Shown: piece by piece, positions 3,301 through 33,100 of the stretch | How positions within the stretch are numbered: the first letter of the stretch is position 1 | How the letters are laid out: every line of letters begins with the position of its first letter | NCBI RefSeq assembly: GCF_002113885.1 | Contig: NW_018404676.1 | Span: 441,453 to 505,452, forward strand | Reading direction: 5' to 3' | From: Mizuhopecten yessoensis | Taxonomy: Eukaryota | DNA length: 64,000 bases | Notes under the pieces: model-generated | The model's database searches: none | The model's input: the letters and a program-made list of their open reading frames with translations, nothing else | What the model was told of the DNA's origin: nothing | Position numbers and translations under genes: made by a program

Positions 3301-4857
3301 GAGAACCAGAAACTGTGCATGCCCTGTTCTTGATTCAAACGGTGCATCCAATGAATGTGATGGAAATCAATACCGTTCTTGGAAGAGTTGCCAAGTAAGA
3401 AAGTCGTTTTCTTCTTTCTATGTTGCGTGAGACGGACATAGGAATGGACTTTACAAAATCAGTTTCCCTCCTCCTCTTCCTTTCTCCATTTAACCATGTA
3501 GTTATTCTTTACTGACGAGGATCACATCTTGTTGGATCAAACGGTATAAAGAATAACATAAAACCAATATCTGATACAATTTGAAGAAGTGACTTAATTT
3601 TGTATTCATACTTCCTTCCATTGGCTCAACGACTACCACATGTTGTTCAGTTTTACTTCTCCCTTATGCCCGCTATATTGTTTTTACGAAAGGATGTTAA
3701 GACAACTCTAATAAATCAATACCTAAATGCTAATAAAACACACGTGACAACATTTCTTGTGCAGGATAAAGTGAATACCCATCAAGCTTAGTATATAAAC
3801 TAATTGTGTAGCTATGATCTATACGGGATTAAGGCTTTACATCAGTAGTTGACTTTCAATTGATTATAGATGAAATTTAAACCTCACAATATTTGACAGC
3901 TCTCCTGGTGATCAGCATATCCAATAATCGGTCATACACATATTCCACTAAGGTTAAAAGATCCACAGGTGTCATAGTATTTATATTGATTGAAAGTGTC
4001 GCTATTAACTCTAGAAGAATGTAGTATCTATTAAACACGACATTGGGCCTTGTCTTACCTTTACTTAATTCTGTCCAATCGATACCATAACCACGGTCCT
4101 ATGCTAGGGATACCGATACCTAGTCCGAGAGATTAACACTGATCCCCCTTACCTGACACGCCTGGTATTCCCGTACCCCCTGTGTATAGTCTGGCCAGGG
4201 TATTACTGTGATACAAATCTCCACTACACCTCAAACGTAGACAATTAGGGCTTTTAAAGTGACATCTTCTACAAAATTCTGACCAACATTATCATCATTT
4301 TGTTCTTGTGATATTGCAACCTATTTGGACGGCTTTATAAGATTAAAGACTGAAAACACCAAAGAATATAGATTGAAAACATATCTAAATATCAAAATTA
4401 TATAGTTGTACATAACATCCATACTTATTTTGGATTTGTTTCCGCAGTACAAAAAAACATCAATCTACTAAAAACCTAATACATGTTTACCATTCTGTCC
4501 TGCATATGGATTATACGTGTTATTCTTGATTTGCGAATCCAAAGCAAAACTTGTACAAAATCATCAGGATTGATTTTGTTATGTACGCACTGTTGACGGA
4601 AGTGTTTAACATTCGTACTGTATCAACCTCGTTTTACAAGTTTGTCCTTGTATGTTGACGCTTGATATGTGTATGTTAATGATTAATTTTATTGTAAAGT
4701 GATTAAACATATATATATGAACTATGTAGGGTCTCATACGGAACAACGTTTGTGTACACCAGTGTTAGAACGTTTGACTACATCCCTTTAATTGTACAAC
4801 GTATCACTCACTTAGACAGCTTGTGATTGAATGATCGATTTCTACGTTCAAGTTACC

Positions 4858-6014: not shown

Positions 6015-6161
6015 ATGAGGCTCCTACGGGAACTTCGTTTATTCCTTCTCCTGATACTCGGTCTTGTGCCTGGGACCGTGGTGGGAACGCTTACCGGGCC
6101 GGAGTTTCTTGGAGGATCCATGAGCTTTGAAGCATTTGATGACCAATCACATAATATCCTG
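6015..6161 (+). CDS. Exon 1: signal peptide plus start of head domain
   Basis: MRLLRELRLFLLLILGLVPGTVVG-TLTGPEFLGGSMSFEAFDDQSHNIL: basic n-region, hydrophobic h-region, probable cleavage near VVG/T. Donor CTG|GTAAGT, phase 0. Confidence 0.85.
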
Positions 6162-9100: not shown

Positions 9101-12100
9101 ACATACGGAATCAGAAAGTTCCTACACATACGGTATCAGAAAGTCCTTACACATACGGAATCAGAAAGTCCTTACACATACGGAATCAGAAAGTCTTTAC
9201 ACATACGGAATCAGAAAATCCTTACACATAAGGAATCAGAAAGTCCTTACACATACGGAATCAGAAAGTCCTTACACATACGGAATCAGAAATTCCCTAC
9301 ACATAAGGAATCACTGTCATCTCTTGTTTTCATTTCTGTTTCTTTGTCCTGCTTTCGCTCTTTAACAATTTAATACGATTGTCCACCTTCTTAAATATCC
9401 AGTCTGATAACCACACGTCACCGCTGATAATTATTATTTCCTTATACCACTTCTTATCCTCTGCTATGGTAATGCCTTTGTAAGCTCTGTGTAACAATGT
9501 TTTGACAAGCTGATGGAATAATGTGTGTGTGATTGTTTGAACTAAATGTTGAGGAATTGGTTGGTGTGTGTCATTCTTCTGTTCAGAGATATACTTTCCC
9601 TTACCAAGTTGCCATCGGAGATACCCCAGTAAAACCTAGTCATGAATGACACATCAAATAAGTGAATGGTTACATAGATTGTATATAGAAAGTTATATGT
9701 TGAAGAAACATCTCAGGAACTAGGCATCATACTTGAGGAACGCCTAAAGGGCATATGTGAATAAATGATTGTCATTAAGAGCAAGTTTAGAGTATCAGGA
9801 AGAGACTAGAGTGATTAACAAACCAGCTATCATAAACCGTGCTTCCAACAAATTGTGTGATGTACAAAATGTACTAGGAACAGCTTCAAGAATAGGACAA
9901 AGAATCCGGACAGAGAGGAGGGAGCTCCAACGAGGACAAACAATATGTATGTCGTGTTTCTGGCGGCGGACCAACAGATCAAGTAGGTTAAGCAGGATTG
10001 GAAGAAATTGGGCAGATTCTGAACCTGTTAGGTTGGCAAATACGATTTGTTTTTTCTTATTTTACTTTTAGAATTAAAACAGTGAGTGCATGATTGAAAA
10101 GAGAGTGTGGTAAATAAAATGGTCATCATATGTTTACTTTCATTACAACCATAATATTGAAAAAATGTATCATTCCACAAAAATAACAAATATATACCTA
10201 CATGTAGGTAAACGCGAAGATATTGACCGGCTGGCGTCTCGGTAAAGGTCAATGTGGATCAACATGTGACCATACTAGTATAGGAACTGACATAACTGGA
10301 AAACATCACAACATCCTGACAGCGAAAGGAAGCCCTACTTACTTCGGAAATTGGCAGGTAGAAGAAAAGATTCCAGGCCATCTTCCTGTACCAAGGGATG
10401 TCACACCGGAGGCAAACAGCAATGTTACTATCCAGGTGGTGGCTGTCAATGACATACTTCTATGGGAGTTGGACAAAGCCGAAGTTACAATAAAGATAAA
10501 CGAAGCAGCAGAATACACGGATTTCATTTGAGTTGCTAAAGATAGGGGTTTGAAATCAGATAAAAGCAAGAAATTAATTAGAAGTTACAATAAGGATAAA
10601 CGAAGCAGCAGAATACACGGATTTCATGTGAGATGCTAAAGATAGGGGTTTGAAATCAGATAAAAGCAAGAAATTAATTAGAAGTTACAATAAGGATAAA
10701 CGAAGCAGCAGAATACACGGATTGCATGTGAGTTGCTAAAGATAGGGGTTTGAAATCAGATAAAAGCAAGAAATTAATTAGAAGTTACAATAAGGATAAA
10801 CGAAGCAGCAGAATACACGGATTTCATGTGAGGTGCTAAAGATAGGGGTTTGAAATCAGATAAAAGCAAGAAATTAATTAGAAGTTACAATAAAGATAAA
10901 CTAAGCAGCAGAATACACGGATTTCATTTGAGTTGCTAAAGATAGGGGTTTGAAATCAGATAAAAGCAAGAAATTAATTATTGAGTTGTTTCCTCTTATA
11001 ATTTTTGTGCATGATAAAATGAAACCAATAGCAGTAGATAACCTTTTTTTTCGAACTGATAAAATTTAATATGATGCTTACACTTCGTTTTCAAATGCAA
11101 ACAATCACACGGTCATATACTTAATGTCTTTCATGAACATTCTCCATTGAAAAAGCTCATCCCATATGTGGTGAGGCAGATTGTAAACTCAATTATAACT
11201 ATTATTTCATAGTTATATTTAGATGTCGCCCAATGTGGCTGTGAGGTGTTGCTTATATATAGTATTTCTTTTTCATTTGTAACCATTTTTTCAATCTGAA
11301 ATCATTAGGGCAAAGCAGTGAGAGATTGCGTAGAGAGACAACATTTTTGTTGCCATCAGTTTTTTTTTCTTTATGTCACATGGTTAATTATATCTTTTGT
11401 TTAATTATCAATACATATTAGGGTCGTCAAACTGGACGAATTTCAGTAACCGGTTACTCGAAAAATCAACTGATTGAAAAACAAGTTAATCGGTCTGTTT
11501 TGTAATTATCAAACAATAACGAAAATATATACATTATACGTTTATCATATTTTATAATTCCCAACTTTGCATTTCTTTTAAAATCTGTTCAGGAGTTTTA
11601 TTGTTTTGTCGGCATCTCTTGGTCAGTCCATACTATTAAATACAAAAAACAACACCCTTGTATCTGCCTGATTGTTGTTATTGCAAATAAATCCAATTTC
11701 GGTCTCATGGATAGATAATTTATAAATATAAGCTAGGTGTACAGAGGGATCCCCAAAGAGCTAAATACATGTCCGACTTTTTAGTTAATGGCTGAGTAAC
11801 CGGTTATCCATTGACAATCCTAATACCTATGTACATTATGCTTTTTTAATAAACAGCAATCTTCTGAATGCAAAATATGTTTTTACAGATTTGAGGGTCT
11901 TAGTTGGACTCCTTTGTCAAAGCAGCCAACTATAAAACAATGGCACATGCAGCTCAAAGTTAACGCAAAACAGCGGAGTGACACCAACAGGCGTAACCGG
12001 AGTCCGATAGTGCAGATTACTCCATACATGAGGTCAGTACAAAATAACTGATATATAAATAACTCATTACATCATACATTAGGATTTCATTTTTACAATG

Positions 12101-15100
12101 TCTCATGTATTTAACCAACTAAACTATGCTTTGTAAGGATCGCATTTGAAAAGTTACAGCACGAACAATATTCAACACAATACTGTATATAAGATATTCT
12201 GCTTAGTCCCAACTTGATTATCATTAACCACGCTTTATATATATATTGTTTGTTTCAGATTGGGAATTAACAGAAATTATACATTGAGTGTCCCAACTAT
12301 TGACCAGGATGGGGATTACTTTGAATGCCGTAAAATGGCATTCATCGAGTTTATAGATCTTCAAACAGCCAACAAATTGAAAAATATTGATATACGAAAG
12401 GTAATGTAGTGTTTAATGACACAAGTATAACTTTATATTATGTTTAATCCTGTTCGGGTGGGATGTTGACAATGTTGGTTGTTGTCACCTCAGAGATGCT
12501 CCTGTAGAAAGTACATGTTTATTGATGTGTTCGCAGTATTAAGATACCCATGTCCCATGTTTTAGATATATACTTTATTAAAGATGTGACACGGAAATTC
12601 AATATTCTACCTGTAATATTCACTCACATTAATACATTTCGCACTAATATTCACGCATACAATATCCAAACTATCCACCAGTGCAATAGCCACTGTTGCG
12701 GTATCCAATGGTGTATTAACTTTGCGTGAAATACTCGTAATGCGAAGACAAAGGAGTCAACAGAGCTGTGTCTTTGTGAACCAAGATTATGAAAGCTGTC
12801 TCGCTGTCACATTTGTTTTTTCTAATTTATTATATACTTCCAAATCCTTCCGTTAATGCTTCATATACATATGTTTGAAATCGTGTTTTTTATTTGTGTT
12901 ATTTGGAATGTTGTATCACGGGGCTCAACACTTTTAAGGGACTCATACAATCGATGAATTGACTGACTACAGATTATATCTTGGCCTTTTTAGACCATGG
13001 TTCACTGAGTTGTTTTGCATTACTTATGTCCAACTCATTGGAATTTATATTTTTTGCTTTACAGTTTTTAATAAAACAAACCTCAACAAGCCAAATTTTA
13101 AATTTGGTAATTACATTCACAAGAAATTTGATTAGGAAACATGCTACAGTGAAATCTGTAAAAGAAATTTTTGCTGAGAGATAATGGTGGGTATGTCGAT
13201 TTTATTGCTTTTAGGATTGCTTCATACACATCGACACATCTAGTCCTGAATACCAGGTAGGAGACTCGGCAGTGATAGCAGTGACAATACAGGACTTCAA
13301 CAGAGATAATATCAAACTGGCTGGAGATCCACATCCTTTACGCCAGCGCTACGCTATTGGACGGTCACTTAGTGCCGTCCCTGTGCAGGTAGGCAAGTTC
13401 ATCAGATTTACGTTACGTTACTATTTCCGTTTATCACTTGCTTGTTTTGCAAAAAACAAAAACAAAAACAATAAAAAAAAACAAAAAAACACCGAGGCGA
13501 CCTGTCTAACTACTGATATTTCACGAATATAGCGGAAAACTTCAATATTTCACGAGGGCGTAGTGAATTGTTGTAGATTTTAGCCAAACGAATTAAATAT
13601 AAAAAAGAAACTCGACGGGAAACCATCACAAACACTTCATATTGCGTTTTGGAAATGTTTTAATGAAAAAATACTCCCTTTAACAAACAGCAAGATTGCT
13701 TGAGAATATCAAAATATCTTCATATTGTAGTGCAGGATCTAAATAACGACGTTAAACGGTCAATGATGTCACAATCAAGGTCAATGCCGAACACATACAT
13801 GTCAACCTTTTGATTCGTTTTTATGGCTATTGCATTAGTATTGAGCATCGTAAACATTTGATTGGTTTAAACACATTGCTTAATTATTATTTTTTTATAA
13901 TTTCATACTTCTGTCAGAAATATCACTTTTATTTGATGAAAAAAATCCCGACAGTCAAATATACGGATATATTTGCCAGTTCATGTATCATTCCCAGTTC
14001 ATCACCATACTGATATATTTAACGGTATGATGTATCAGTCTATACCCACATCAATGTGTCGACGAGTAACCTGTTTACTTGTTCAAAGATGTACAAGTTG
14101 CAGTGTACAAATGTGTGAATTTTTGAAAGTCATTCAATAAATGTGTTTATTTCAGTTTTACATAGAGATTGTTCTCAAAGACGATGCACCTGTGATCATC
14201 GATCCGACCCCTCTTGAACAACAGATGTTCACTGTCTTTGTTGGGTCAATATTGAAACTCAAAGTTGTAGCCAAACCCACTAATCCGACCAGGTACATAG
14301 TTCAATACTCAAGTTCAATCAAATGTAAAATAGACATAATTCATTTAGTACATATGGGCTTATAAAGGATGATATGTATTATAATGGTTGTCGTACTCGA
14401 TGACAACAAAATATAGTAACATTTAATGCTACCCATTTGACGTCACTTTTCTGAAAGAGACTATAGCTGTTTTTATGAAATACACTTGTATAGAAAGGAG
14501 AAGATCGACTTTTATGCGTATATGTTGTTAATTAAATCACTGATTTAAATCATTTGTAAGATTATCAAAATGACCCACTGATAATGATTGGGTGAGAGAC
14601 ATGAACTTACTTGTTCACTTAATTGCCAATTAAGCTGTTTGTTTACTCGCATCTACCTTTACATGTTCTAGGACACTATCACACTTTTTCTTCACACGAC
14701 GTGACGGCGTTGTTCCACAAACTTCGGTGGTGACTGACGAAACAGTGATAGATCCACTCGCGAAAAGTCAGTCGGTTCTTTGGACACCTGTAGCCTCTGA
14801 CTTGGGAGATCATATCTTGTGTGTGAGGGTCGAGGACAGTGCTGGGTAATGTAGCAGACATTATCTAAATAACTTAAAGGGGCTGGTATGCCATATTTGC
14901 TAAAATGGCATACACATGTTTAAAATACCTTCTTATGAAATATACCGATTCAAATTTTGCTGAAATTCACTCCCTAAGAGTAAAAAATATAATTATATTA
15001 AAGAAATCCTAAATTGTCACCTGACAGTCTTAACCTCTCAATTGACCCAGATCAGTGATGTAATTTTAACGCATCATCAACAAGGCCACATGTAAACATC

Positions 15101-18100
15101 GCGGCGAAAGAAAAAGATGCATGCAAAAGTCATGACAGGCACGAGGTATCAATACCGTTATATATAACAACAACATAGGTAGGAATACTACACTTGCATC
15201 ATACATGACCTTTGAAAACAATTATTTACGTATAGTATTGCTGTCTTGTCCGCTAGTTGAGTCCGACATGGTATAACAACATATTGCCGTGGTATAACAT
15301 AACGGCGTGCTATTGTTGTTATCTTCACTGCCTCCTTTTCGAAACAACCACGTCACATATATAAATAGATCTGCGCTAAATTTTCGCGGGGCTTCCCCGA
15401 GATTTCAGTTGTCAAAACTGGGTATTGCAAGCAGAACTCGACCATCATATTGCCGTGGTATAACTTTTGGAAGGCCTGAGAACGCATTTAGACCCATTTA
15501 TTTTGTATTTTTTTCCCCGACCAGCCCCTTAAAGCATCCATAATAACTGTTTATAACAAAAACACGTACGTTTTTAAAGCCAATGGAATAAGTCAAAGGC
15601 CAATTATATCTAAACAATAAATAAAAAAACCATGCTATAAAACTATCATTGTTATGATCATGACACATGTACATATAAAGACTCCTATTATTTCTTCAGA
15701 TTCGACGCACTACCACGATGCTTCATCATACGAGTAAAAGGTATGGTTTTAAAAATTCAAGTTTATATGGTTCGTTTAGCTAAGAATCTCAACTATTTGT
15801 GTAAATTTTTTAACTGTACCAATTACTTCTTTGAACCAACCGTATAACGGGATATTTATGCGGGATGAAATGTTCGCGATTTTGACCCAAGTTTAGAAAA
15901 AAAGGTTTACACGGACTATATTTTTGCGATCTAGATATGTTAAGGAAGTACATTTGTGCGGTGTTTTAGCATAGAGACGGGACACTCCGCATTAAAAGAG
16001 TTAAATAGTCAAATGATTAGGCTATATTAACAGTCATAACAACATGCTTGCTATTTCATGACGATAATACGGTGATCCGGTTCACTTGACACGTGTCATA
16101 TTATTCTGCTGATCAAATATTCTTGATCACTTTATTGGCCGGCAAAATAGCGAAAATAGCATCCGGACCATATGATATTACAATGCGCAATTTCAAAATT
16201 CCATCCAATCCGTTTATCGGCTATTCTTAGATGTAAGCATTTCAGTTTTATTTTGCATCTGATGGTACCCATTGTATAAAATAATTAATGCAAACTTGTA
16301 TAAACACTAATGTCTTATAAATAAAATTCAGATCAGAAAAAGAATACAATTTGTAAATCATCTGTCTTTTAGCTGCTCCTGTTGGAGTAGGATCACAGAT
16401 AGTACAGGTAAGATATGATAAAGTACATAGAGGATGCTATACCATTGTATAATAAGTGAATTGGAATACGTTCTTATTAAAATCAAGTGATTCATCCAAA
16501 ATAAACCAAGAATAATTCATAAGTATACATGTAGCGTCAATTGATTGAAACACTCGCATTCATTTGAAATGCTAAACAAAATCTTTCCACAAATGATAAA
16601 CATAAGGTCCATATTATTACAAGGGTTTTCAATTTTTAGATGTCCATATAATATACTGAATGTCAAAACCAAGAATTCTGTAAACACTAGTGGTACCCTC
16701 CACGTGGTCGGTAAATATTTGATGTATCTTGTCTATTTTAAATCAAGGGAAAACCAGCGTTCCTGCGGTTTCCATCTAACGGAGAGATTTCCTGTTTGGT
16801 CGGGTCAAGTTGTCGTTTCCCTATCTACGCTGTTTCCACCTCACCTGGGTACTTACACTGATTTAAATTACCTTAAGTATTAAAATTGGGAAAACTTGTC
16901 ATTTTCTTACCAAGCATGACAAAAGAGAGAAATTAGTCAAGCAACTTTATGCAATGTCAATACGTTTACCGATGAAAACCTTATTGAATACGTCAAATTG
17001 AAAAAATATTTACTTAAAATGCACATTATTTCGCTTCTTTCAGAGGAATTACAGATATATCTCTAACTAGTTCGGAAGCCGCGGGTTGTCATGTTAGTGC
17101 AATCAGAGATGCCAGTGCCATACATATAGGAGCAAAAATGGTTGACATGACATTTCAAGATTCCTCGTTTGGTCGTAAGAAAATTTGTTTAAGAGCAGCA
17201 GATGCGTAAGTATTCAATTCACATTGTATAATTTATGTCTTATATCGGTGAAGCTTTCTGATGGATTTGTTATGTTATATTTGTACTTGTCACGTCCTTT
17301 TTCTATCACCTGTCAAGTATACCTCATGTTTAAAGACAATGCCATTTAAGGTTTCCTGTCGTCTGTATTTATTAGTCGTGATGTCTTTGAAAAAGAAAGC
17401 ATGTCGTACAGAAAATTTCAATAATTTTTTAAACGCTACATTTTTTGCCCACCTGGTCTTAAAGACCATAGTGAGCTTTTGCTATACCGCGTCGTCCTTT
17501 GCCCGTTCGTCCGTCAACTTTTCCTTTAAAACGCTACTATTCCTGAACAGCGTTATAGATTTTGACTAAATTTGGCATGGAGCATCCTTGGGCAAAGGGA
17601 CTAAATTTTGTGTAAACGGAGGGTGTGGCCATTTTGTTGCAGATGGGCATGGCCAAATAGTGAATTTTGAGGTTTAAATCTTCAAAATCCTTCTTCTTCT
17701 GTGCCTTTTCAGGGATTTTATCCAAATTTGGTACAGAGAATTCTTGGGCAAAGACGACTAAATTTTGTATAAACGGCGGGTGTGGCCCCTTTGGGTGCAG
17801 AGGGTAGGGGCTCAAAAGGGGTATTTGAGGTTTAAATCTTCAAAATCCTTCTATTTCTGAACAATTTAAGCGATTTTAACCAAATTTGGCCTGGAGCATC
17901 CTTCGATAGAGGGACTGCATATTGTGCAAACAGTGGTTGTGGCCTTCTTGGGTGCAGAGGGGTTGCGCTCAAAAGGGATATTTGAGGTTTAAATATTTTA
18001 AATCCTTCTCCTTTTGTACCATTTGAGAGATGTTATCAAAATTCAGCCAGGAGCGTCTTTGAGCAAAGGGGGCTGAATTTTGTATGAACGGAGGGTGCGC

Positions 18101-21100
18101 CCTCTTGGTGCATAGAGGCAGGGTCCAATAGAAAAGTTTGAGATTTAAATCTTTAAAATCCCTCTTCTACTGTACCATTGGAGGATTTATAACCAAATTT
18201 GGTCTAGAGCATCCTTTTGCAAAGGGAAGTGATATTTTGTAAATAAAGGGTGTGGCCCCCTGGGTGCAGAGGGGCGGGCCCAATATGAACTTTAAAATCG
18301 TTCTTTTTATGTACCTTTTGAGGGATTTTAATCAAATTTGGTCCAGAGCATCCTTGGGAAAGTGACTCAATTTGTTTTAAGGTAGAGTGTGCCCACACTG
18401 CGGGCAGAGGTGTTTGATTTGAGGGATTTAAAACAAATTTGGTGTAGAGAATCCTTGGGCAAAAAGGACTCAATTATGTATAAATAGAAGGGTGGTTTCA
18501 GGGGGCAGAGTGGCGAGCCCAATAGGGAAACTTGAGATTAATGTTTGAAATTCCACCCCAATTCATGGGGGCAGAAAGAAGGGATCTTCGTGTCATGTTA
18601 ATGAAAAACCATAAAATCGGTTTTCATCTTTTTAATGGTGAAACACGTATTCTATCGAATGCAGTCATTTTCCTGAAACATTACCCATTCTGCTTTATTT
18701 CTTACCTTTCAGCAATTCTGTAATTATGAAATGTTTTGAGGCAGTGGTACAACCAAAGGGTACGTAACAGATTATATATGCATAAGCAATTTTGTTGTCT
18801 GTGAATGAATGTAACAAAATGTTATCTTATTTGACAATCGATCTGTGTTTTAAGCCTGTTTCCTAAACATTTGCTGTTTTATTGAACTTGCATTGACCAA
18901 CCATAAATATCCATACGTGTGATGTTTCTGGAATATGTATATCATAAATTTATCACATTTATAGAATTGATACAACTGAAATTTTCCGGAACATGTTTTT
19001 CAAACAGAAACTTTTACATTTTTCTTTATTCATAATTACGTGTCAAAATTTTATTTACTAGATCCATGTGAAGTACAACCCTGTCGAAATAGTGCTGAGT
19101 GTGTTACGAACGGTGACAGAACATCATATGTTTGCATATGTCCCCCGGGGTATACGGGCATCGCCTGTGATATAGGTACTTTCTATACAATCACCTGGTC
19201 AAAGGCCACGTGAGATTATTCCGTTGCTTGACGTTCTTCGTCTGTTGTGTTTCGTAGTGTTGGTGTGTCTATTCTTTAACAATTGCAGAAGAAATGCTTT
19301 TGGGAGCTTTTTTGGTAGCTTTTTTTTAATATGCATGAGTACTAACGCCTCTATATTCCTTTCAAAAAAGATTAATGTATTTAGTTTGAAGGGAATTGCT
19401 ACGCCAGTTTGTCCATTTAATTGAAAATGCTCACCATTCTACATTTAGGTGTCATGTGTACGACAACCAGAGACAGATTTCATCAAAAGATAGGAATCTT
19501 TTGAGAATGTACAGTCAGCTAATCATCAATTACAATGGGGTCAAAAGGCAGAAGACATTGATAGGCCGCAATAACATTTTCTTGACCCGTTTGCGTAACA
19601 TCTAGGAATATCATATTATCAACATTTACCTGACGACAGAATAGTGGAATTGAATATAGAAGACGTCATTTTCGGGGCTTAATCTTTAGAATTTTATCCT
19701 ATTCAACCACTTTCCAGAGTCTAGGGGGATCTGATGTGCAAACCACTTTGCAATCGTTTAAATCAATCTTCCGAATTTTGTTTGATGTTACCAAGATACT
19801 ATCATGTATTTGACAAGACAGGCATACAACATTGATAAACAAAACGCCCGCCCCTCTGAAGCACCTGGCTGCATCTGATTATTGTACATGTTACATGATA
19901 TCTACAATTTGTTCGAGTTGATGTATTTCTTTGTGACTACAGGAATTATTATTTTGTGTCCATGCTTTGTTATACTTGATATATATATTCTAAGTATATT
20001 TCACATGGAGAGCTTGACTCAAGTTGATAAAACCACTATATTAAACGACTACAAATCGTGTCAAGAGTGATTGAATGGATTTATAGCATGCCTGTTTCTG
20101 ATGTTTGTTTTGCTTCAATGTATTAAAACCGAAACAATTAAAGCAAAATTAAGTGAGCAGTGTTTTCAAAACACCACATAAACTATTAGGCCATCGTACC
20201 ACTTTCACTTTGGACTTTGATGCTCCATACATCATACTTTGCTGCTGAGAGTATAAATATAACACACTGATGGTAAGGATTAACTCATTTTATTCTGTAT
20301 TTCAGCTCCTGATAAATGCAATCCTAACCCTTGTAAATTTGGAGGCATTTGTATTCCTCATGGAATTCAGGTCGAGTGCCGGTGTACGAGTGGATTCTTT
20401 GGCACATATTGTGAAAATGGTATGTATTCACAAGCTACAAAATGAAGTTTTAAATTAGTCGCGTTGTCGTGGTTTGCTATTAATGATGCTTTACTAAGTT
20501 TTAATACATAATTATAATGCATCTCATCTTACGTAGCTATGGATACGTTTCTACATGACCCGTGTTTGTTCCATGTTTTATATGACTTAACTGTGGCTAT
20601 GTTTGTCTCCCTGATCCGTCTGTAGTTTAGTTGTTATATAACGTAGCCGTTAATGCCTATCACCCTGACACGTCTGTAGTAAATGAATCAGATAGCGTAG
20701 CTGTTGATACGTATAACACCGAAATGTATATTCTCACCTGTATGTGGAACCTGTCTTATGTTGTGTTACCTCTATGTAGCTTTGATTGTGTGTATCAAAG
20801 AGCTGTGAAAAGTAGATTTTTATATTAATGTAGCTTTAGAAACGTGTAGCATTGCATAACTGGATGAGTGCATATTTCTGACCTGTATGCAGAACGTGTT
20901 TTATATTAAATATGTGTATCCCAGACCAATATGTAGTTTGTACTTAGCTGTGGATGGGTGGACATCCTGTAGTATGTGTGTGTGTTTTAAATGTTTTAAA
21001 ATATGTATATCACATAGCCGTGGATAAGTGCAGACCTGACCCTTGCGGTAAACATGGAGTATGTGAAGAAACACCAACTGGATACACGTGTCATTGTCAG

Positions 21101-24100
21101 GACGGCTACTCTGGGAACAGTTGTACAGGTACGCAGTTAGTAGCAGAAATTTAAGTATCATTAATGTTTACTAATCGCAAATAGCAACGAACAATATTGT
21201 TAACATCGTTAAGTGTAACTCGCTATACGAAAAGTTATATATTTTTTTTTTCTTTCTAAAATACATTTTTATTGTCTGCAGGTCCTGTCAGTCCTCCAGT
21301 TAACGCTTGTAATCTAAATCCAAGAGCTGTTGGATGCAGTAAGTATTCTGCTTTAAGGCTAGAGTAATAGATTGGTAAATAGGTTTACATTGAGTATGTT
21401 CCAATATAGGCACTTGATCGGAACAAACGAAAGTTTTTTGGAGCGTATTACCTAAAATAGATTAAATAGATATATAACCTAAGAAGTAACAGAGACAGTC
21501 CACGCAAGGGCATTTGTAAAATATTCTAGTCAATCCACCCCTTAATCAAGACACAAACAAGTTATTTTTATATATGTTACCACGTTTCAGATGTAACGTC
21601 ACTTTTTATTGGTTAATAACCATGAATTGCATAACGATGGTATCGCCCTTAGCCTTTCACCCCTTCGGAGGTTCTTCAGGATTTTTTTTGAAGATAATTT
21701 TTACATGAGTAAAATCTGCTTGCTCTCATTGAATTTAATGAAAACATAACAGAAATGATCTGATATAATTCAAAAATGCTTGTGGTAAAGCATTGGATAT
21801 CAGAATGCTTTGGGGTTTTAAGTTAATAAGCGTTTCCATATAAATTGTTTCCGTTTGGATTGTCTGAATGAAAACAAGATAAAATTGTCCATCCGAAAAT
21901 GGTTTAATATTAAATGTATATTAACATATATATTGTAGTATTGTTTCTCCATTATTGGAATAACATATAAAATAAAATGTCGCCGTCACTAATAAATTTT
22001 CATTTACGTTGTATATCAAATGGCTGGATGATGCACTGACAAAATTAGGTAACACTCTTTATTTATGTTAAGGAAATAATAATAAAAAGAAATCCGTAAC
22101 CATAATGATTCCTTTATTTTAAGACTGTGGTGCACAATGTGTTGCCCCAAACGGAATATGTGTAGGGGCGCCTGGATCAGGAACATGTTTATGTTCAAAA
22201 GGCTTCACTGGACCCGATTGTCAAAGTGAGTATAGTAAGCCCGGTATAAAAATAATATTGCCTCTCCTTATTTCGTCTTTATACGTGGGTATTTTTTCAC
22301 TATATTTACTGACATGAATGTGCCACTATGACCTTCATTTGATGGCACCATTTAAGTACCGTTTTTCCGTTAAACAACTGATATATTTCGATGATTGTAG
22401 AATTATCGTCATTATTGAAGTATATAACATATAACAACTGTTTAACGATACCACTTCCTTGCTTCGTAAATGGATGAGATGTGATTATATAAGTAGGCCT
22501 ACTGGTCGTCATATATTGATTTCCCTCTGCGGTTTTGTGCTCCTTTTATCTGATTAAGTCTGATACACTAGATACGCTATGCATATGAGGTGGAGATACG
22601 TAGTTTGTTTGAATATACGCCAAATGTCTTCAAAACATTAAATAAGCACACCGGAATGATAAGTAGACAATGTTAAATGCATTGGAAGTTCGTGTATAGA
22701 GTGAAGTAATATTATTTATATAGATGAAATTATTTGAAATACAATACCAACATGTTTATATTACAGGTCAAAGCTCTCTTGGAGGACAAGATGTACGTAG
22801 AGTTCAGTCATTAAATTACCGTTGTCGTAAAACTCAGATGCTTAATTGTCATACGATCCTTGGTAATAAAGATTTCGAAGAAAATACTATTCTAATGATT
22901 AAGCCATTTGAAAGCATTGTCGAATTATATTTGTTACAGATACCATTTTTGAAGAATTTAAACCAAAAGGACTTTTTTTCCCACGGCACACTATTAAAAA
23001 TAAAAACAAATATTTAACAATGTTTTGTTTTTTATAGCTGATATGTGTTTAACAAACGCCCGAAGCTGAAGATTTGATGAAATGTGAACAAAATTAATAC
23101 TTTTCATACGCATGTATTTTCTATGATAGAGAGAATAAGTCCGATACTTCTACAATTTTTACTGACAACTTATCTATCAATTCATTTCTAATCAAGCTTA
23201 GTGCTATGACGTTATTGAAAGCCTTTTTATACCGAGATCATGACCATGGCGGTTTATAGGACGTTAAACAATACTAAACCAAACTAAACCAAACTAGACC
23301 AACGTAGGTCGTGCGGATCTACATTTCTCTTTTAGAGGCTGTGTAGAGGCAAAAACGTCCCCAAATTAGAATAAATTATGAAGAGAAATTGCACTTATTA
23401 TACATGTACATCATGGTCAATCTCTGTGACGATTTTCAAAGTTGGATCACCGTATTCTTCATTCATTACTGTTACTTAGTAAAACATGTGAATGGGAATA
23501 CATGAAGCCTTTATGAATAAAAAATACATGAAACATTGTTTTCGCTTTTTATAGCCGATATTTGTTCCACCAACACCCGAAGCTGAAGATTTGATAAAGT
23601 GTGAGCAAAATTCATACTTGTCAACCACATGTATATTTGCGGTATATACATCGCCTGACACTGGTATGAGGTACGTAAAAACACCTTACAGTATAACAGA
23701 GAAATAACACCAAAAATACTTTGATCTTAATAATTGTATCACACCAACTTTCCTGAAAACTTGTTTAGGCAATCATTTTAAGAAAACGATAGAAATAGTG
23801 GATATACTGGAACATGTAAGTGTTTGGTTTGATTTCTATTTTTGGTATAACTAGCTGAAAGGTTATATCGGGTAAAACGGCAATCTTCATTACCAGTATG
23901 TTTTCATTACAGTACTGCGCCTCTGGTCAAAACCATTTTGCCACCTAGCAAAGTACGAATTTCCGTTTCTCCTGCGGCCGATCCAAAGATCCCCGGTATC
24001 CTCAACATATACCGTTTTGATATAAAGATACAGGCCCAACCCAAAGCAGCTCCTAAACTGCATGTTTGCCTGCAAGTAGCAAAATCATCCGAGTAAGTAC

Positions 24101-27100
24101 GTTTGAGGTTTTTTCTTTTTAGAAAATGCTTTAAAATCATATGAATTGAAGCGTCTACTGGCATTTTGTTTAAAATAAATCAAATGCAGACGTGTACTTT
24201 TCGTAAAAAAGTTTAATATTTCATTCATCTTTATATGAATGGTTTCCAATTTAATGCCATATATATTTCACGTAGGAGTAGGACCCAATACCGATACTTA
24301 AACGATAGAGTTCATTATATCACTGGCATGAAAGTAATAATAAGTGCAATTGTGAAGTATATGCACAGAATTAGGTATGATTGTTATTTCCATATTTCAG
24401 TAGTACACATCCAACAGACACTAAGTGCTTCAACGTGGAATATGTTTTCAAGCGTAAGTACATTGTCATTTATGTATGAAGTTGAATTAAAATCACATAA
24501 ATATTTTAACCAAAGAGTAGTTTGCGAACAATGTCTGCTAAATACTAAAGCATCCAGAATGTAACAATTTTGTTGTATGGTTTGATTCTGTCCCTTATAA
24601 TCCTTTATGGTGTCAGTAATAAACTAATAATCCAAAAAAATAATCATGATGCGTTATATCAATTTGTGTCATAGCTGTCATATTTTGGATATAGTTAAAC
24701 CTATGTTACTTGTTGAATATCTAATAATGTTGTCATAATCCTTTCAGATGGAATTGATCCATGGGGCACATCTATATCACCGGCACCTGTAAGTACTATG
24801 AAGTGTATGTCACCAGAGCAGATTATGAACAGGGTGAAACATGCGTTGTATAATATAATATGCGGTATTGATAAATTTACATACTAATACTTGCAAGAAA
24901 TAATTATCATACACTCAAAGCTTTAGTGAGAGACAAACCTAGGGAGACCATAAACCAACTTGTACTATCATAAAAAGTTAACATGGCTATACGGAAAGTA
25001 GCAGTCCCACTAAACAACGGGGGTCAGTGGCGCTGTAAGTCAAAACAAAAACAATTTGAAAAGTCCTCTGCAATCTTTACAGAAATACTTCAGTTGCAGA
25101 GCATATTCGGATGTATCAGTTTTCATTATTGAATACTTATCCGTGAATAATGTGCAGGAATCTCTATAGAGCTCGCATATAGGTTATGAAAATTACCTCG
25201 TCTATCTCTATATATCTAAAAAAAATCAATGCAGGTGATTCAATTTTTCCCTATAATTGTAATAAGGTAACATCTGATGTGCAAACTGTAATTATCTACC
25301 AATAATGACACATTAAGACAAAATTTTGGTACTTATGATATTATTTTGTATTCAGCTAACAGTGTATGACTGAATCATTTTGAATGTTTTAAAGCTGTAA
25401 CGCCTAATGTTGTTGGATCCTACCAACTTGCCAGATACTACGTGATCCTTATAATATGACAACGCCTAAATGTGATAAATAACCAAAACATCATGCTTAA
25501 TTTGTTTGTTTATCTATAAACAAGCATATTTATATCGCAATATAATAAACATGATATAGTTCCTAAGCTGTAACAGTGCAATATTTACACTTTGACGCTA
25601 AATATATATTGTTATTATGACTTGGATTTACCGCTTCCTTGTTTTTTTATCTTCTCTGTTTGTCGCTTTGTTATATTTACAAACACCGATTGTTGGTATG
25701 CTACATTTAATTGATTATTGAACTTTCGATTACAGGCCAATACGTTTGTAGATCCCACTTTACCAGACCAAAGTGAGATTGTATGTGAAATTGGAAAACC
25801 ATGTCATTTCTTCGTTTTTGCATCTAAGGTTGCCAGCATCTGGTAAGTGCTTCACGTTGCTTTCTGTTTCAACGGTTTGCATTTATATGATGTACTGTAA
25901 GTCTTAGAACGTGTCAATTATTCAAAACCGTGTGTGTGTACCTCTCTGTGTTGGTAAGCGGGATAGACATTGGGTTAAATTGTCGTCAGACTTTAGATAG
26001 ACGCGTTCTGGCAGTGTTCTCTCGTATGTCCTTTAACCTCAGTTGAGTGTTGTGAAAAATCATACATGAGTTATTCTTGACACTCATACGGTTATAAGTC
26101 TGCCAATGTATCGGGAAGATTCTATATTTTATTTTACCATTTCGCGTCACATAAAAATGTGATCTGTTATTGGAACAATTAGATAAAGAAAGATAAGAGC
26201 GATACCATCAAAAAGTTGATAATCAGTTGTTTTGTTTTCGTTTATTATTTTGAATGTATGTGATAATTTATATGTTTACAAACAAAAGGGAGATTTTAAT
26301 TTGACAATGAATTAATTCGATTCAATTCAATTCAAATAAAGAGAACAGTTTGTTTCGACCATTTGTAATTTATTAGTGTAAAGTTTTTGGTTTGGATATA
26401 AAATCTGAAACAGTAGAAAAATAAGTTTTTTTATGAATAGTGAAATTACCTTGGCAACAATCCTATCAATTTTACCCATGCATACGGCTGTCGAAGCATA
26501 CACTTTTACAATATCACTTTGAAACTGTTTACATGTAGTCGTGTCTCTTGAAATTTAATTTACTGTTGTCATTAACTACTTTTTAAAGAAGATTTGTATC
26601 GATTATGTTTGGTTATGTATGTATAAACTATATTGTAGCAAACATGTGTTGGCCAGTGACACGGTGTCTACTGCAGTATTCGATCCGTCTGACGTCGGCA
26701 CTTCATGTATGACAAATATTGTATGCGACTTCAAATCGTCCGCTATAGCCGGCACCAGGAAGAAAATTTGCCTTAAATCAGGGTTAGTAATGTTATTTTT
26801 TATCAACAATTATTTGAATACCTATTACGGCGGTCAACTTTCTATCTAATATAATTCCCGCGCATGACAATAATTGTTTTCTATATAGTCAAATATATCA
26901 TCAAGATGTTGCATAAAGGGGGTTCATAGTTTTCACTTTAGTAAATCTTTAATATGATGTGCAGCGATATATTTTACGTTCACCTAGACAGATCTTAGAA
27001 TGATTTTTGTAATCTTTTTGAAATTCTGTGATCAACGCGCTACAGGTAATGTATTCTGGAGTGGCCACCATTTACGGATGGTTTTAAATACCATTTTTAT

Positions 27101-30100
27101 CTTATTATTAATTCTGCCATTTTATGTTCACAGTGATTTAGGTGATGTACGATGTTTTTACTTGAGGAGTGTTACAAGTATTGTGGGTACGTAATAGTAA
27201 TGTACGACTGTTTTCTACCATCAGTTATACACGTTATTTAAATGATATTTTATAAAATTGATCCTTTCGAAAAGAAAACTTTCAATGAGTCAGTTTGTCA
27301 AATGATGATGATTACCGTTGTAGATCACTGTGCCTCCAGTCCTTGTAAGAACGGAGGAGTGTGTGGGTCCACACAGGGTACCTATGTTTGTACATGCACA
27401 GCTGGCTTCACTGGACAGTCATGCGAAAAAGGTGAGTTTCATAGCAGAAAGGTTGAAGGAATAATGTAATAAGTTTTTGACTTTAAGATATACCTCATTC
27501 AACATAGACGATAGCTTTGCTGTATGCTTTTGTTTTTCATTTGTTCGTTCATGTGATCGGCATACATTTTTAGCTCACCTGGCCCGAAGGGCCATGTGAG
27601 CTTATGCCGTACTGCGGCGTCCGTCCGTCTTTCGTCCGTCGCGAATCCGTTAACTTTTTCTTTTGAACGACTTCTTCTGGAGAACTGGAGGACCTAGGGT
27701 CATAATATTTGGCCATTAAGAACCTGGGATGGATTGCTATAAAGTTTCCTCATTAAAATGACATTGACCTACTTTCAAGGTCACTGTGGTCAAATATGTT
27801 CAAAATTTCAAACAACGATAACCTAAGAACCATTTGAACTAGAGTCATGATACTTGGGTATGTTATGGAGAACAGTAGTGCAAATCGTTTGCTCATTACA
27901 GTAATGAGGTCAAAGGTCAACTTTAATTGCTAGTTGAGGGTCAAATGTCAACTTTTGTTAAAAGCTTTAACAATATCCTTCTCAAGTTCCAAAGGGCCCA
28001 GGGTCATGATATTTGGCCAATAGGTACTTTGGATGGAGTGCTATAAAGTATCCTCATTTAAACGGTCAATGTGGGTTAAAAGCTTAAAAATTAAAATTTT
28101 AAATTTCAAACAACAGTATCTTCAGAACCGTTTAAGCGATGTTAAAATGTCTTGTGTTCTAGTTTCCAAATTTAGTCTTAAGTTGAATATATGTCAGTTT
28201 CATTTACCAAAAGAAACAGGTGAGCGAAACAGGCCCTTTGGGCCTCTTGTTTAAGGTAGATTCTCTTATCTGGACAATTAACAACGTTCGATAATTGGGG
28301 ACCTAATGCTATAATGATTTCCGTTTTGCATTTAGGTCCGTGCCCGCCTACAGTTCCACCTCACTGTAACAATGGCGGATATTGTTACTCCATTGGAGCT
28401 ACCAGAAATTGTTTCTGCAAACTTGGATTTTCGGGACAAACATGCGCAGATAGTAAGTTTCGCATGATCTGAAGTTTCAAATATACCGTAGTTCTTCTCT
28501 TATAAAAATCAGCACACTTTGTGTCTTAGCCAGTTGATATACTACAGACGTTTTTGGAAATGACCGGTAATTCGGTAATTATCCATAATATTGTAATTAA
28601 CGATTATGGAAAATATGCAGAATAACTTCCTCTAATTGTTGTTCCCATTTCTCTTTTAATCACTGTAAACCGTACAGCCTTCCTTAATTTTTACAATTAT
28701 ACCGTGGTATCAGTTGTCCAGTAACAATGTAACATTTATATCAACAAGCAGAAAATGACTTCATGTATATGACACATAACAGCATCGGTTGTTTATAGAA
28801 TTGTCCATTTCATTTATTTTTCTAGATTCGAAAGATACCGTCGTGAATCCGCAAGCTAATGGGGTAAATGCCTTTTATCAAAACATATGCAATTACCACA
28901 GAAACAAATATGCATTGATCAACATTTAGAAGTATTGGTTTAAAAGCGGCTTCTTTTAACTTATAAAGCTTTTTTAACAGTAGTGATGTTTACCAAAACA
29001 CATTTGTGTAGCAATGGGTATCCTAATAGACACAAGTGTAATATACTTTCATTTTTAAAGGCTAAATTCAAGGATGGGACCATCCCAAAAGAAGTTAAAT
29101 GTTACGTAGGCCAACCATGTCAAATACCGACAACGCTCATAGGTGATCCTGGGACCAGGTAAGGTTCACACTGATTGTATAGGTAATAGGTAACTTTTTG
29201 AGCGATAGGATTGTCTATTATTGTATATTTCTCGTTAGTGTGGCATGTTGATTTGTTGTCACCCTCCAAGTTTCTCGCTATGAGGACGTTACATTATTTG
29301 ACCTAGATTTATCAGTTGGTTGTTGCCGATGAAGCAGAAAGATTTTGACCCTTCCGTTAAATCTTCCTCTTCCTTTGTTAAGGTTTTGCCATACTATAAT
29401 CGATTTTTCGAATTCTTGCAACATATATTTAAAAATTGATTAGCAAGTTATGACTTATGACGAAAACGTATTTTATCAAATAACATATGTGTTCCCGATA
29501 TCCTCATTGGTTGGATCGTACATACGTGGGATGCGGATTTGAGATATTTACTCGGTGTTTTTTGAAACAGAGCAGAAGGTCAATATTCACCTATGACGTC
29601 ATTTCAAGTGTAAAGTCACAATGATCTCTGCCGAATGCAGTGCTTTCCTTCATGTAATTTCCCTATATGTACATTCCGTTTATCACCTTATGAAATAGAT
29701 AGACATTTTATTTCGGTGAATATGTGGTTAAATGGATCTGAGAAAATTATGTTAACCTTGACTTTGTCTCGGTTAATATCACTGTCTCAGGTCCGTATAA
29801 CCACATATACCCCTGAACAAAAGTCCATAATTGATACCTATGTAGTGAAAGCAATGTAAAAAAATAAAGAGACCACTTTGTTACCAAGTGTTGTATACTT
29901 CCAATTATTAATCACAAACACGTAAAAAGACCGAGCTGTTCAGGCTCATTCAATCACTCAAAGTATAAAATGACAGTTTCAAACGAATGAACATGTTATG
30001 TTTACGAATATACATAATAAATGGGCTGACATTCACCTCTCATGGTGTAATATCAGGGGTGTAAGGGCGCATGTTGATGTTTGTATGTGAATGTATCAAA

Positions 30101-33100
30101 ATATTTTTGATGATGTGAGTGTTTACATTTTATAACTAGAAAAAATAAAAACACAAATTTTGATCTCATTGTTATGATTAAATTCTTCAGACCCGTTGTG
30201 AGTCCAGGGTACGTTAACGGAAATCTTGATGTACACGGGACCACTGTAACCAAGGACCCTTCCTCCCCAACCGATTACCATACCAGTGTGGAGGTGGTTA
30301 GTAAGACCAGTGGCAAACACCAAATATGTATCCAAAGCAATAACCCAGCGGGGTAAGTTATTCTGAAGGTATTATTTATCTATGTTTGAACCAAAGAGTA
30401 ATATCAAATTTAAATGTTTTAACCCTCCCTAACAGCAGCTTATTTGAGGTGCATGTGATTTGAAAAATATATCTTGCTTAGATAAAATTTATCTGAATAT
30501 CATGAGCTACATTTTCAAATAAAAAGATATGAATTGCAAACTGAGCAGTGTAGAGCTGAAAATGTATATATACTGATAAAGAGATCAAAATAAAACTAAT
30601 GCTTAAATCCTTTTGATTCTTTGCAGAAAAAATCGAAAATGTACTTTTCTATTTTATATTCCAGACAAAGTGCCGATGAAATATGTTTTATGGTAAATGC
30701 AGTCAATGGTAAGTATACATGCATCTTATATAAGTATTATAATCAATAATTATCAATACGTTTTAAATAACATTCCAATGATATACACTCACTATGAAAA
30801 GCTTTTTGGTGTAAATAACATGGTAATTGTATATCTTTTACAGGACAACTCAACCTGCCGAGCAAGGTAAATAAAGCAGATAAAATAAAAACAACAATAT
30901 ATGTATACTACCAACTTTAACCATACTTACCATCAACTAATGCTTGAACAATTGACTGACTGAAGCATTATCTAATATGTCACTTGAAATGTGTTAAGGT
31001 GGTTCTTTTAAATTAACCCACTAACTCTGTAGTTCATGGTGGTACCATCAGTAACTAAATATATCGTCTCTTATAAAGTACTTTTATAAAATATGACACA
31101 GGGTCGTCTGTATACATTTCGATCCGATGTGAAGAATGACTCATAACATTATTCGTTTCAGTCGCATGCGTATTTTATTGATCCCTCCCTACCGGATGGC
31201 TCTTCTGTGGAGTGCAAGACCGGTAAAGCCTGTCACCTCAGTCTCTGGGTTCACAACTACGATGGCGAGGACGCATGGTAGGGAGAGCATTGTTCGATGT
31301 TTTTGGCAATCTTTTTTTAAAGAAAGCTTTGTCCAGTTTTCCAGCCAAAAAAATGAATCACAGTAAAGTATTTTGACTGAATAATTTGTATAGCCTTAAT
31401 TATTTTGATATATAGAGGTTACCCAACGAGTACTGTTTGGTTATTATGATTATCTAACTCTAGTTAGATAACTTTGATAATCAACCATTACGAGTTTGTG
31501 GACCTTTAAATTCCTCACACAATAGTCAGGTTTTATATCTAGATTATCATAAATATCTCTTGGGAACACACTTTTCCTGTTTCCGATTGGGGAACTAGTT
31601 ACCATGAACATGATTGTTACTTGACGTCATAATTAGAAGATTGGCCAATAAAATGACGTCCAAGATGTTACTCACCAGTGAGTACCAAAATATTCATCAA
31701 CATTTTGAGAGTTTATCATCAGATTCCCTTTATATTTAAAATCACGTACCTATTATGATATTTCCTTATTTTTATAAGACTCACTTTTTTAAAATATAAC
31801 TTTATGTTTCAAATTAGACTCATCGATCAATTATCTCACATGATATTCAGATTGTATCAGTTGATTCATCTTGGTTGCTTTCAGTCCATCAGTTAAATCG
31901 TCACAAGACATCTACTCAGGAGTATACATCCACCAGGCTACTGGCACATCCGCGTCAGGTCCATGTAAGGTGGATGTGGTCTTTCACAACGATCAGCCAA
32001 AAACTTACACAGGCATATGTTTCACATCAACGTCTTCCAGACAAGATGTTTTCGGGTAAGACATTTTTTTATTTTTTTTTGTAAAGCTACAAAATGTATC
32101 AAAAGAAGATAAAAACCCAACTTTATATATGTTTCTTCACGAAATGCGCTTCAAAATAGTTTACAACCATACATGTATGTGTATCTTCGTTCAACTTTTT
32201 TTTTGAAGAAAGCTCCAATAATAAGGTAACGATGGCGTTCCGTCAGTTTAGTATGTGTTTTAATCATGTACAGATTGGAAAAGTGACATGTTCTAAGAGA
32301 TGAAATATTTTTGATAAGGACACTGATAGATGAAAAGATCTTCGAAACTCACTTTCCAACAATTCCACTTCTTACATGTCAGGACGATTATAGTCCTCAT
32401 TTCACCAAGATTGGTAGTATAAAGTTAAGATGATGGCTTGGATGAAGAACTTGCAGAGACAAGGATAAAACGTTGGATGATCCTCCTGGATAATATCTAT
32501 ATATAGCCAAGTTGCAGCTGTATGGAGCTGTAGAGCAAGGACATGCTGAAGAAGGAGCTTTTCTAATGTCATCTAAATCTAACTGCTATAGCGTTTGCTT
32601 GTAGTTGGAAAGCTTGGAAGTAAGGGTTTAGAATAGCTGTAAGACACGAAGTACGGTGGTATGTTAGCTTTGACAGACTTTTAATTTTGGATATAACGAA
32701 TTTTAATGGCATCTAACATGAGAGTTTAATAGAATGTCGAGTTACCGAAGAGTCGTAACATTCAGCACAGAATACAAGAGTCAAATTTTATGACTGCATT
32801 TTCTGAGAAATGATTAAAGACATATTTTAATGCCGTAAGCTATGCCAGTTTACAATGGACATGTTTTATGTCTTTTCAGAGGTGACGGAGAGGTCCGCTG
32901 CTATGACGTCACTATCGTTGATACGTTGTCAGGTGAGGTTACTTTGTTTCTGTCTAAACTATTGGGAAATTCTAGCCACAGTTTGATGCCACTGAAAGTG
33001 ACTTTAAATTTGTGTGATATTCGTACTCTTGTAACTTTGCATATCCAGGTAATTTATGAAATATGTTTATGCAAACCGAAAGCTAAACAAACTGACTTAA

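What the first reader, a model, noticed from the sequence alone, without database searches (positions are those of the whole stretch)
10481..10980. Exact 100-bp tandem array multiplies the exon-2 splice donor, and the in-frame copy has GT>TT
Seen: the array begins inside exon 2. The phase-2 donor needed to join exon 3 falls at 10527/10528. Copy 1 reads AT|TTGAGT, with no GT and an in-frame TGA on read-through. Copies 2-4 read GTGAGA, GTGAGT and GTGAGG; copy 5 again TTGAGT. Copies 1 and 5 also share a second variant (TAAAG vs TAAGG). Using downstream donors would include the stop. So this haplotype is either a recent null allele of an otherwise intact gene, uses a weak upstream phase-2 donor (GA|GTTGGA near 10467), or is mis-assembled. 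Unequal crossover or gene conversion in the array could switch the gene on or off (inference).
Basis: partly seen in the sequence, partly recalled or inferred. Interest (0 to 1): 0.7.

Follow-up and report, generated by a model that had tools for sequence, protein, structure and literature searches.

The report
Scallop splice-donor repeat, likely assembly error
A real 100-base duplication copies an exon's splice signal in a scallop gene, but the letter that seems to break the gene is likely an error of this assembly, because four other animals carry the normal letter and the gene's RNA is spliced correctly.

Summary
The 5 x 100-bp array at 10481-10980 and the TT at 10528-10529 are in the window as described. 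The gene is a scallop EGF-repeat gene with a signal-peptide-like start. Exon 1 is 6015-6161, exon 2 is 10208-10527, exon 3 starts at 11889. Orthologues read straight across this junction.

In 4 of 4 DNA runs laid (four studies) the unit assembles as one 100-bp contig with G at 10528, plus a unit-to-unit junction contig; depths suggest about 1.3-3.4 copies, and none of the window's other copy variants appears. Both RNA runs that cover the exons (2 of 4 laid) splice 10527 to 11889 in frame.

So the duplication is real and of a known kind (F7, LMNB2, amphioxus 'mirages'), while the broken donor is most likely an assembly error (about 0.8). It has split the gene in two in public protein sets. A private null allele in the sequenced animal is not excluded: its reads were not identified, and the contigs can drop minority variants. 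The scan found donor-spanning repeats before at two other loci of this genome.

The parts
6015..6161 (+). Exon 1 coding part (49 codons, hydrophobic signal-peptide-like start), donor GTAAGT at 6162, phase 0
   Evidence: Sequence; tblastn of the Ylistrum orthologue 66%; RNA contig in X11 runs from the end of this exon into 10207 (table 7)
10208..10527 (+). Exon 2 (106 codons + AT), its last 47 bases are the start of repeat copy 1
   Evidence: 71% to orthologue; covered by RNA contigs of X11 and X13, which end at 10527
10481..10980 (+). Tandem array as assembled, 5 x 100 bp; unit = last 47 bases of exon 2 + first 53 bases of intron 2. Real in animals at about 1.3-3.4 copies by depth
10528..10533 (+). 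Authentic phase-2 donor of intron 2; TTGAGT in the window, G at 10528 in all four DNA runs laid; the site used by both RNA contigs
   Evidence: table 3 (T>G at full depth in 4 of 4); table 5 (joint 10527-11889)
10529..10531 (+). In-frame TGA just inside intron 2; any read-through or use of a downstream donor stops at codon 157
   Evidence: the public 156-aa model P0001 ends here
10581..10980 (+). Downstream copies with duplicate donors at 10628, 10728, 10828 (GT) and 10928 (TT in the window); not seen used; carry 8 of the 9 deviations from the unit seen in other animals
10465..10473 (+).
   Evidence: 3 of 9 letters match the U1 consensus (consensus recalled, and given in PMC1557585)
11889..12032 (+). 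Exon 3, phase-2 acceptor
   Evidence: 89% to orthologue; RNA joints 10527-11889 and 12030-12257
11947..40111 (+). Rest of the annotated reading frame (public model P0053, 1439 aa, starts at a Met inside exon 3); EGF-like repeats and repeated cysteine-containing modules
   Evidence: 1428 of 1439 residues map exactly in 44 blocks; Pfam EGF hits for the orthologue and for P0053

Best explanation
A real 100-base tandem duplication spans the exon-2/intron-2 boundary of an expressed scallop EGF-repeat gene, transcripts use the first splice donor, and the GT>TT seen in this window is likely an assembly error. Shown: in four other animals the unit is one sequence with GT and is joined head to tail; two RNA assemblies splice 10527 to 11889 in frame; orthologues keep this junction. 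Inferred: short reads could not resolve identical 100-base copies, so the array was rebuilt locally with wrong bases and probably too many copies; the wrong T removed the donor and led gene callers to split one gene into a 156-aa and a 1439/1466-aa model. Inferred by analogy with human F7: the most upstream intact donor wins, and the downstream copies stay silent because they are passed over (any use would include a stop at codon 157).
For:: 4 of 4 DNA runs (four studies) give one 100-bp contig at 10481-10580 with a single difference, 10528 T>G, at full depth (25, 23.8, 32.1, 23.7). The left flank contig ends at 10510 in all four, and a 60-bp junction contig is listed for X1, X3 and X4 (for X10 its depth was derived from the bin table). 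With 31-mer graphs (PMC12424806, passages) this means first and later copies share unit positions 1-30, so the window's G14 (three copies) and T22 are absent from the majority path. No contig is laid on 10639-10850 in three runs and only the edge of the junction contig in X4. Unit/flank depth 1.9, 2.8, 3.4, 1.3, not 5. X1 and X4 match the window's flanks almost exactly; for X1, 0-2 substitutions in 1,648 bases against 9 deviations in the 440 array bases not covered by flank contigs (Fisher P 8e-7 to 3e-5; counting 6 distinct variants 9e-5 to 1.6e-3). One unit site has three different bases within the window; joint 10527-11889 in X11 and X13 (two studies); 3 of 3 scallop homologues with an N-terminus that were aligned read TD(F/L)(I/M)YEG across the junction. 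G000 is fragmented (82,659 contigs). Precedent: an amphioxus mirage was 'aberrantly assembled' in the draft genome (PMC3087553, passages).
Against: The reads of the sequenced animal were not identified, so its genotype is not tested. The contigs are simplified with SPAdes-like heuristics and can drop minority variants; no single-base bubble is listed, so a minority TT copy could be hidden. G14 recurs in three copies and T48 in two, which independent read errors would not give; it needs reuse of the same wrong path or real variants in that animal. RNA support is thin: two contigs at depth 3.9 and 6.9, and 2 of 4 RNA runs (raw reads, about 19% read) had no exon coverage. A scan of 864 kb of the same contig found no general assembler signature in other arrays.
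Confidence: 0.8

Rival explanations
1. The T is real in the sequenced animal but sits in a downstream copy, and the assembler placed it in copy 1 as well. The gene is still intact; the array has real internal variants.
For: T48 occurs in both copy 1 and copy 5, and G14 in three copies, which looks like reuse of real variants. Minority variants can be lost from the contigs.
Against: A G14 majority would move the end of the left flank contig from 10510 to about 10524; it ends at 10510 in 4 of 4 runs, including X1 and X4 whose flanks match the window. Four further singletons in 500 bases remain unexplained.
Confidence: 0.09
2. The sequenced animal carries a true private null allele: donor 1 is TT, the next donor in copy 2 is used or exon 2 is skipped, and the transcript stops early (as in the F7 patient allele).
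For: The window shows TT. In F7, loss of the first donor activates the second monomer's donor (PMC1557585, Introduction and first Results section). The RNA runs come from other animals and do not test this allele.
Against: 0 of 4 animals show T. It needs six distinct new variants in 500 bases on a haplotype that otherwise matches X1 and X4. The remaining 1439 codons are open, so the allele would have to be very young.
Confidence: 0.08
3. The allele is real and rescued by a non-standard site: the upstream GT at 10468, or a TT..AG intron.
For: The 10467 join is in frame. The RNA joint maps to TT..AG ends on the window.
Against: The 10467 site matches 3 of 9 consensus letters and deletes 20 residues kept in three homologues; neither RNA contig uses it. 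The TT..AG label only reflects the window's base; DNA of other animals has GT there.
Confidence: 0.03

Closest known systems
Human F7 intron 7 37-bp VNTR (PMC1557585; abstract, outline, Introduction and first Results section read)
   Same: First monomer spans the exon/intron boundary; identical downstream donors; variable copy number; only the most upstream donor used.
   Different: Here the unit is 100 bp with 47 exonic bases, there are only about 1-3 copies by depth, and a stop codon lies directly after the donor; selection of the first donor is shown only by two low-depth contigs.
Human LMNB2 100-bp, PDGF 81-bp, CBS and IFN-inducible 6-16 donor-spanning minisatellites (as cited in the Introduction of PMC1557585; the primary papers were not read)
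   Same: LMNB2 has the same unit length and uses only the authentic donor.
   Different: Those arrays have 10-25 copies; CBS and 6-16 also use two downstream sites, which was not seen here.
Amphioxus 'mirages' in Adh3 and globin genes (PMC3087553; passages)
   Same: Invertebrate tandem duplications of an exon/intron boundary, length variable between haplotypes, normal splicing; one was aberrantly assembled in the draft genome.
   Different: Units there are 10-72 or 150-160 bp and up to 19% diverged; here the unit seen in animals is a single sequence, so the duplication is young.
False gene losses from assembly and sequence errors (bioRxiv 10.1101/2021.04.09.438906; passages)
   Same: Repeats in short-read assemblies produce false fragmented or broken genes.
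   Different: The passages seen do not treat splice-site errors (the word 'splice' does not occur in the main text); this case is a single-base donor loss inside a repeat.

Membership tests
Donor-spanning tandem repeat (F7-type VNTR / mirage) | First unit spans a real exon/intron boundary | tested here: met
   RNA joint at 10527/11889 lies at unit position 47/48
Donor-spanning tandem repeat (F7-type VNTR / mirage) | Donor sequence is repeated head to tail in the intron, in real DNA | tested here: met
   Unit contig with GT in 4 of 4 DNA runs; junction contig listed in 3, inferred from depth in the fourth
Donor-spanning tandem repeat (F7-type VNTR / mirage) | Copy number varies between haplotypes | tested here: inconclusive
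   Depth ratios 1.3-3.4 across four runs suggest variation, but rest on low contig depths; no allele was spanned
Donor-spanning tandem repeat (F7-type VNTR / mirage) | Most upstream donor is the one normally used | tested here: met
   2 of 2 RNA contigs that cross the junction use the first donor; no RNA depth on 10585-11058; low depth
Donor-spanning tandem repeat (F7-type VNTR / mirage) | Downstream donors are functional when the first is lost | not testable with these tools
   Needs a minigene or an animal with a mutant first donor
Splice-donor null allele | Loss of the GT exists in raw DNA reads | tested here: not met
   G at 10528 in 4 of 4 runs of other or unknown animals; the sequenced animal itself could not be tested
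Splice-donor null allele | No correctly spliced transcript from the allele | tested here: inconclusive
   Correct splicing in X11 and X13, but their genotypes are unknown
Assembly error in a tandem repeat | Assembly differs from reads inside the repeat but agrees in the flanks | tested here: met
   9 deviations in 440 array bases against 0-2 in 1,648 flank bases for X1; these are contigs of other or unknown animals
Assembly error in a tandem repeat | Assembly disagrees with its own source reads | not testable with these tools
   Source reads not identified among the 20 runs listed

The most novel reading that the evidence does not exclude
The array is a young, length-variable dosage dial: each extra copy adds a donor whose use includes a stop at codon 157, so longer alleles leak more transcript into decay, and TT copies, if they exist in some animals, can be moved into the first position by unequal crossover or conversion to give true on/off alleles of a large secreted EGF-repeat protein.
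Probability: 0.1. Interest if true: 0.45.

Novelty: new member of a known kind. Interest (0 to 1): 0.15.

Why it matters
The practical value is an annotation fix. One likely wrong base splits a gene of at least 1,614 codons into a 156-aa model (XP_021347325.1, OWF53398.1) and a 1439- or 1466-aa model that lacks the signal-peptide-like start (XP_021347326.1, OWF53399.1). It is also a warning that differences between copies of short tandem arrays in this assembly should not be read as biology without reads. The biology that remains, a small donor-spanning duplication that splicing ignores, is known from human and amphioxus genes. It would matter more only if copy number changed the amount of productive transcript.

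Tried and rejected
1. Upstream donor at 10467: in frame but weak and unused.
2. Substitution spectrum as a sign of read error: five of the six array variants are transversions, but real differences in X10 at this locus are also rich in T>G and G>T (table 1), so it does not discriminate. Dropped.
3. Assembler signature in other arrays: 222 arrays found in 864 kb (80 stretches of G000:C1349 plus the window, output partly cut). For the 52 with at least 4 copies and 250 bases, the longest exact repeat ran from 29 to 2,535 bases, with no cap; 8 of the 48 with at least 5 deviations had unusually even spacing at P<0.05 (rows overlap and are not independent). Inconclusive. The idea that the fill avoids repeated k-mers fails here (longest exact repeat 104 bases).
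4. In this array no stretch over 69 bases matches the unit seen in animals (P about 3e-4 under random placement), but recurrence at the same unit positions breaks that null, so it is not counted as evidence.
5. Raw RNA reads X19 and X20: no coverage of any exon; uninformative, not evidence of silence.
6. Protein search for other junction-spanning peptides of 85-273 aa: only P0001 among 241 candidates.
7. A second copy or other haplotype of the region in G000: none found by DNA or protein.
8. Pseudo-exon use inside the array (an AG forms at each unit junction, 10580-10581): the upstream tract is purine-rich, a 46-base exon would shift the frame, and no RNA depth lies there.
9. Function of the N-terminal module: no Pfam family for P0001; Atlas hits for the Argopecten homologue are unnamed clusters at 0.91-0.92. 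Not pursued further.
10. Literature: no paper holds the five accessions or locus ids from the calls, nor one neighbouring locus id that I guessed; none holds scallop + minisatellite + splice site + intron + copy number. Searches were searches for methods and precedents; of their hits only the four papers cited were opened. No supplements were read.

Full report
Observation. Tandem Repeats Finder gives 10481-10980, period 100, 5.0 copies, 97% matches, no indels. The five copies differ at five unit positions: 14 (A,G,G,G,A), 22 (G,G,G,G,T), 44 (T,T,G,T,T), 48 (T,G,G,G,T) and 53 (T,A,T,G,T). The array ends sharply on both sides with no clear microhomology at the breakpoints. The unit occurs nowhere else in G000, and exon 2 has one match.

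The gene. Exon 2 (10208-10527) found 47 proteins at E up to 0.001. The best, P0001, is exon 1 plus exon 2 read up to the TGA, letter for letter; its source names it uncharacterized protein LOC110446477 of Mizuhopecten yessoensis, 156 aa. The second, P0002 from Ylistrum balloti (1236 aa, 71%), continues past that point and has EGF-like domains. Laid on the window, P0002 finds exon 1 at 6015 and further exons to 40108. A search with its first 420 residues found P0053, a 1439-aa model with the next accession number that starts at a Met inside exon 3; 1428 of its 1439 residues map exactly to the window in 44 blocks. A second annotation starts its model with eight unrelated residues before exon 3 (P0057). 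So two public annotations split the gene at this donor. The Ylistrum protein and two Argopecten proteins read TD(F/L)(I/M)YEG across the junction, which is what the 10527/11889 join gives (IFEG). Joined, the frame is 1,614 codons.

Donor logic. Exon 3 begins with the third base of a codon. Of eight candidate donors tested, only 10467 and 10527 give an open frame; the four downstream ones stop at codon 157, because TGA follows the donor's first base whether that base is G or T. The 10467 site matches 3 of 9 consensus letters and would remove 20 conserved residues.

DNA of other animals. Twenty runs were listed, 16 holding part of the stretch, from 8 studies. I laid four DNA runs, one per study. 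All four show the same graph: a left flank contig ending at 10510, one 100-bp contig at 10481-10580 with one difference, 10528 T>G, at full depth, and a right flank contig starting at 10951. A 60-bp contig that joins the end of the unit to its start is listed for X1, X3 and X4; for X10 its depth (8.3) was derived from the bin table. These contigs are built from 31-mers (PMC12424806, passages), so the branch at 10510 means that first and later copies share unit positions 1-30. The unit in these animals is therefore copy 1 with G at 48. None of the window's five copies equals it; they carry 9 deviations, 6 distinct. Depth on 10639-10850 is zero in three runs and only the edge of the junction contig in X4, and the depth at copy 5 is fully explained by the right flank contig, so no variant-bearing contig was laid. 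Unit-to-flank depth is 1.9, 2.8, 3.4 and 1.3; the junction gives 1.8, 2.6, 2.9 and 1.5 copies. These are rough. X1 and X4 list 10528 as their only substitution away from contig ends; for X1, 0-2 substitutions in 1,648 flank bases stand against 9 in 440 array bases (Fisher P 8e-7 to 3e-5; 9e-5 to 1.6e-3 for 6 distinct variants).

RNA. Of four RNA runs laid, two contig sets from two studies (X11, guessed RNA; X13, on record as RNA) join 10527 to 11889 at depth 3.9 and 6.9, continue to exon 4, and X11 also runs from exon 1 into exon 2. There is no RNA depth on 10585-11058. The two raw-read runs covered no exon and say nothing.

Limits. The sequenced animal's own reads were not identified. The contigs are simplified and can lose minority variants (the tool says the same); multi-base bubbles survive in X10 but no single-base bubble is listed. 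The recurrence of G14 and T48 is not what independent read errors give. A scan of other arrays in 864 kb of the same contig found no general assembler signature. Rare use of downstream donors would be hidden by low depth and, by established knowledge, by nonsense-mediated decay.

Mechanism. Shown: a head-to-tail duplication of the last 47 bases of exon 2 and the first 53 of intron 2, with GT intact in the animals laid, and in-frame splicing at the first donor. Inferred: the array was rebuilt with wrong bases and probably too many copies in a fragmented assembly (82,659 contigs), and the wrong T at 10528 split the annotation. Inferred by analogy: the first intact donor is chosen and the later ones are passed over, as shown for human F7 (PMC1557585). 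I give this 0.8, a real T misplaced from a downstream copy 0.09, a true private null 0.08 and a non-standard rescue 0.03.

Known kind. Donor-spanning repeats are described for F7, LMNB2 (100-bp unit), PDGF, CBS and 6-16 (Introduction of PMC1557585) and as 'mirages' in amphioxus, where one was noted as aberrantly assembled in the draft genome (PMC3087553, passages). Earlier notes of this scan describe two such repeats elsewhere in this genome; they gave me the F7 and lancelet leads, which I read myself, but I did not check their loci. No paper in the library holds this locus's accessions or the scallop term set.

Verdict. A new but ordinary member of a known kind, with the striking part, the broken donor, most likely not real. 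Interest 0.15. The boldest reading left open, a copy-number dial with occasional on/off alleles, has probability 0.1 and would deserve 0.45.

Noticed in passing
window 40106-40117 and 41737-41915: The annotated protein P0053 ends at CTG TAA, which overlaps a perfect donor (CT|GTAAGT, phase 2). The next exon-like block at 41744 has a phase-2 acceptor and continues the same repeated modules, with more such blocks up to at least 63107. The gene may be much longer or have a short form ending at this donor; the Ylistrum model P0002 ends at the same place. Not tested with RNA.
   Followed up: partly
window 7342-9313: A 25-bp minisatellite of 79 copies (88% matches) fills much of intron 1.
   Followed up: no
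window 198-2251 (+) and 2778-3458 (-): Decayed retroelement frames with stops: reverse-transcriptase/RNase H/integrase-like on the plus strand and a reverse-transcriptase-like piece on the minus strand (names from recall of the motifs, not from a family search).
   Followed up: no
window 14850-15560: A dispersed repeat in an intron attracts deep, 90-99% alike RNA reads and contigs in all four RNA runs, with joints between opposite strands at 14888/15509 that suggest inverted ends.
   Followed up: no
window 11418-11467 and about 11720-11830: Short dispersed repeat pieces in intron 2 break the contigs in all four DNA runs.
   Followed up: no
window 11360: The window has one more T in a T run than 4 of 4 DNA runs show at 11360/11361 (in X10 one of two contigs), possibly another small consensus error.
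   Followed up: no
P0058 (XP_021339768.1): A 166-aa partial protein identical to residues of P0053 is annotated on a separate 4,445-base contig, perhaps an unmerged second haplotype of the gene's middle.
   Followed up: no
G000:C1349:710478-711307 and 390299-393250: Arrays with perfectly or almost perfectly identical copies (101 bp x 8.2; 45 bp x 65) in the same contig; they may be collapsed or filled sequence.
   Followed up: no
window 17558-18273 and 50941-51270: Intronic arrays of 157 bp x 4.6 (72%) and 58 bp x 5.7 (93%).
   Followed up: no
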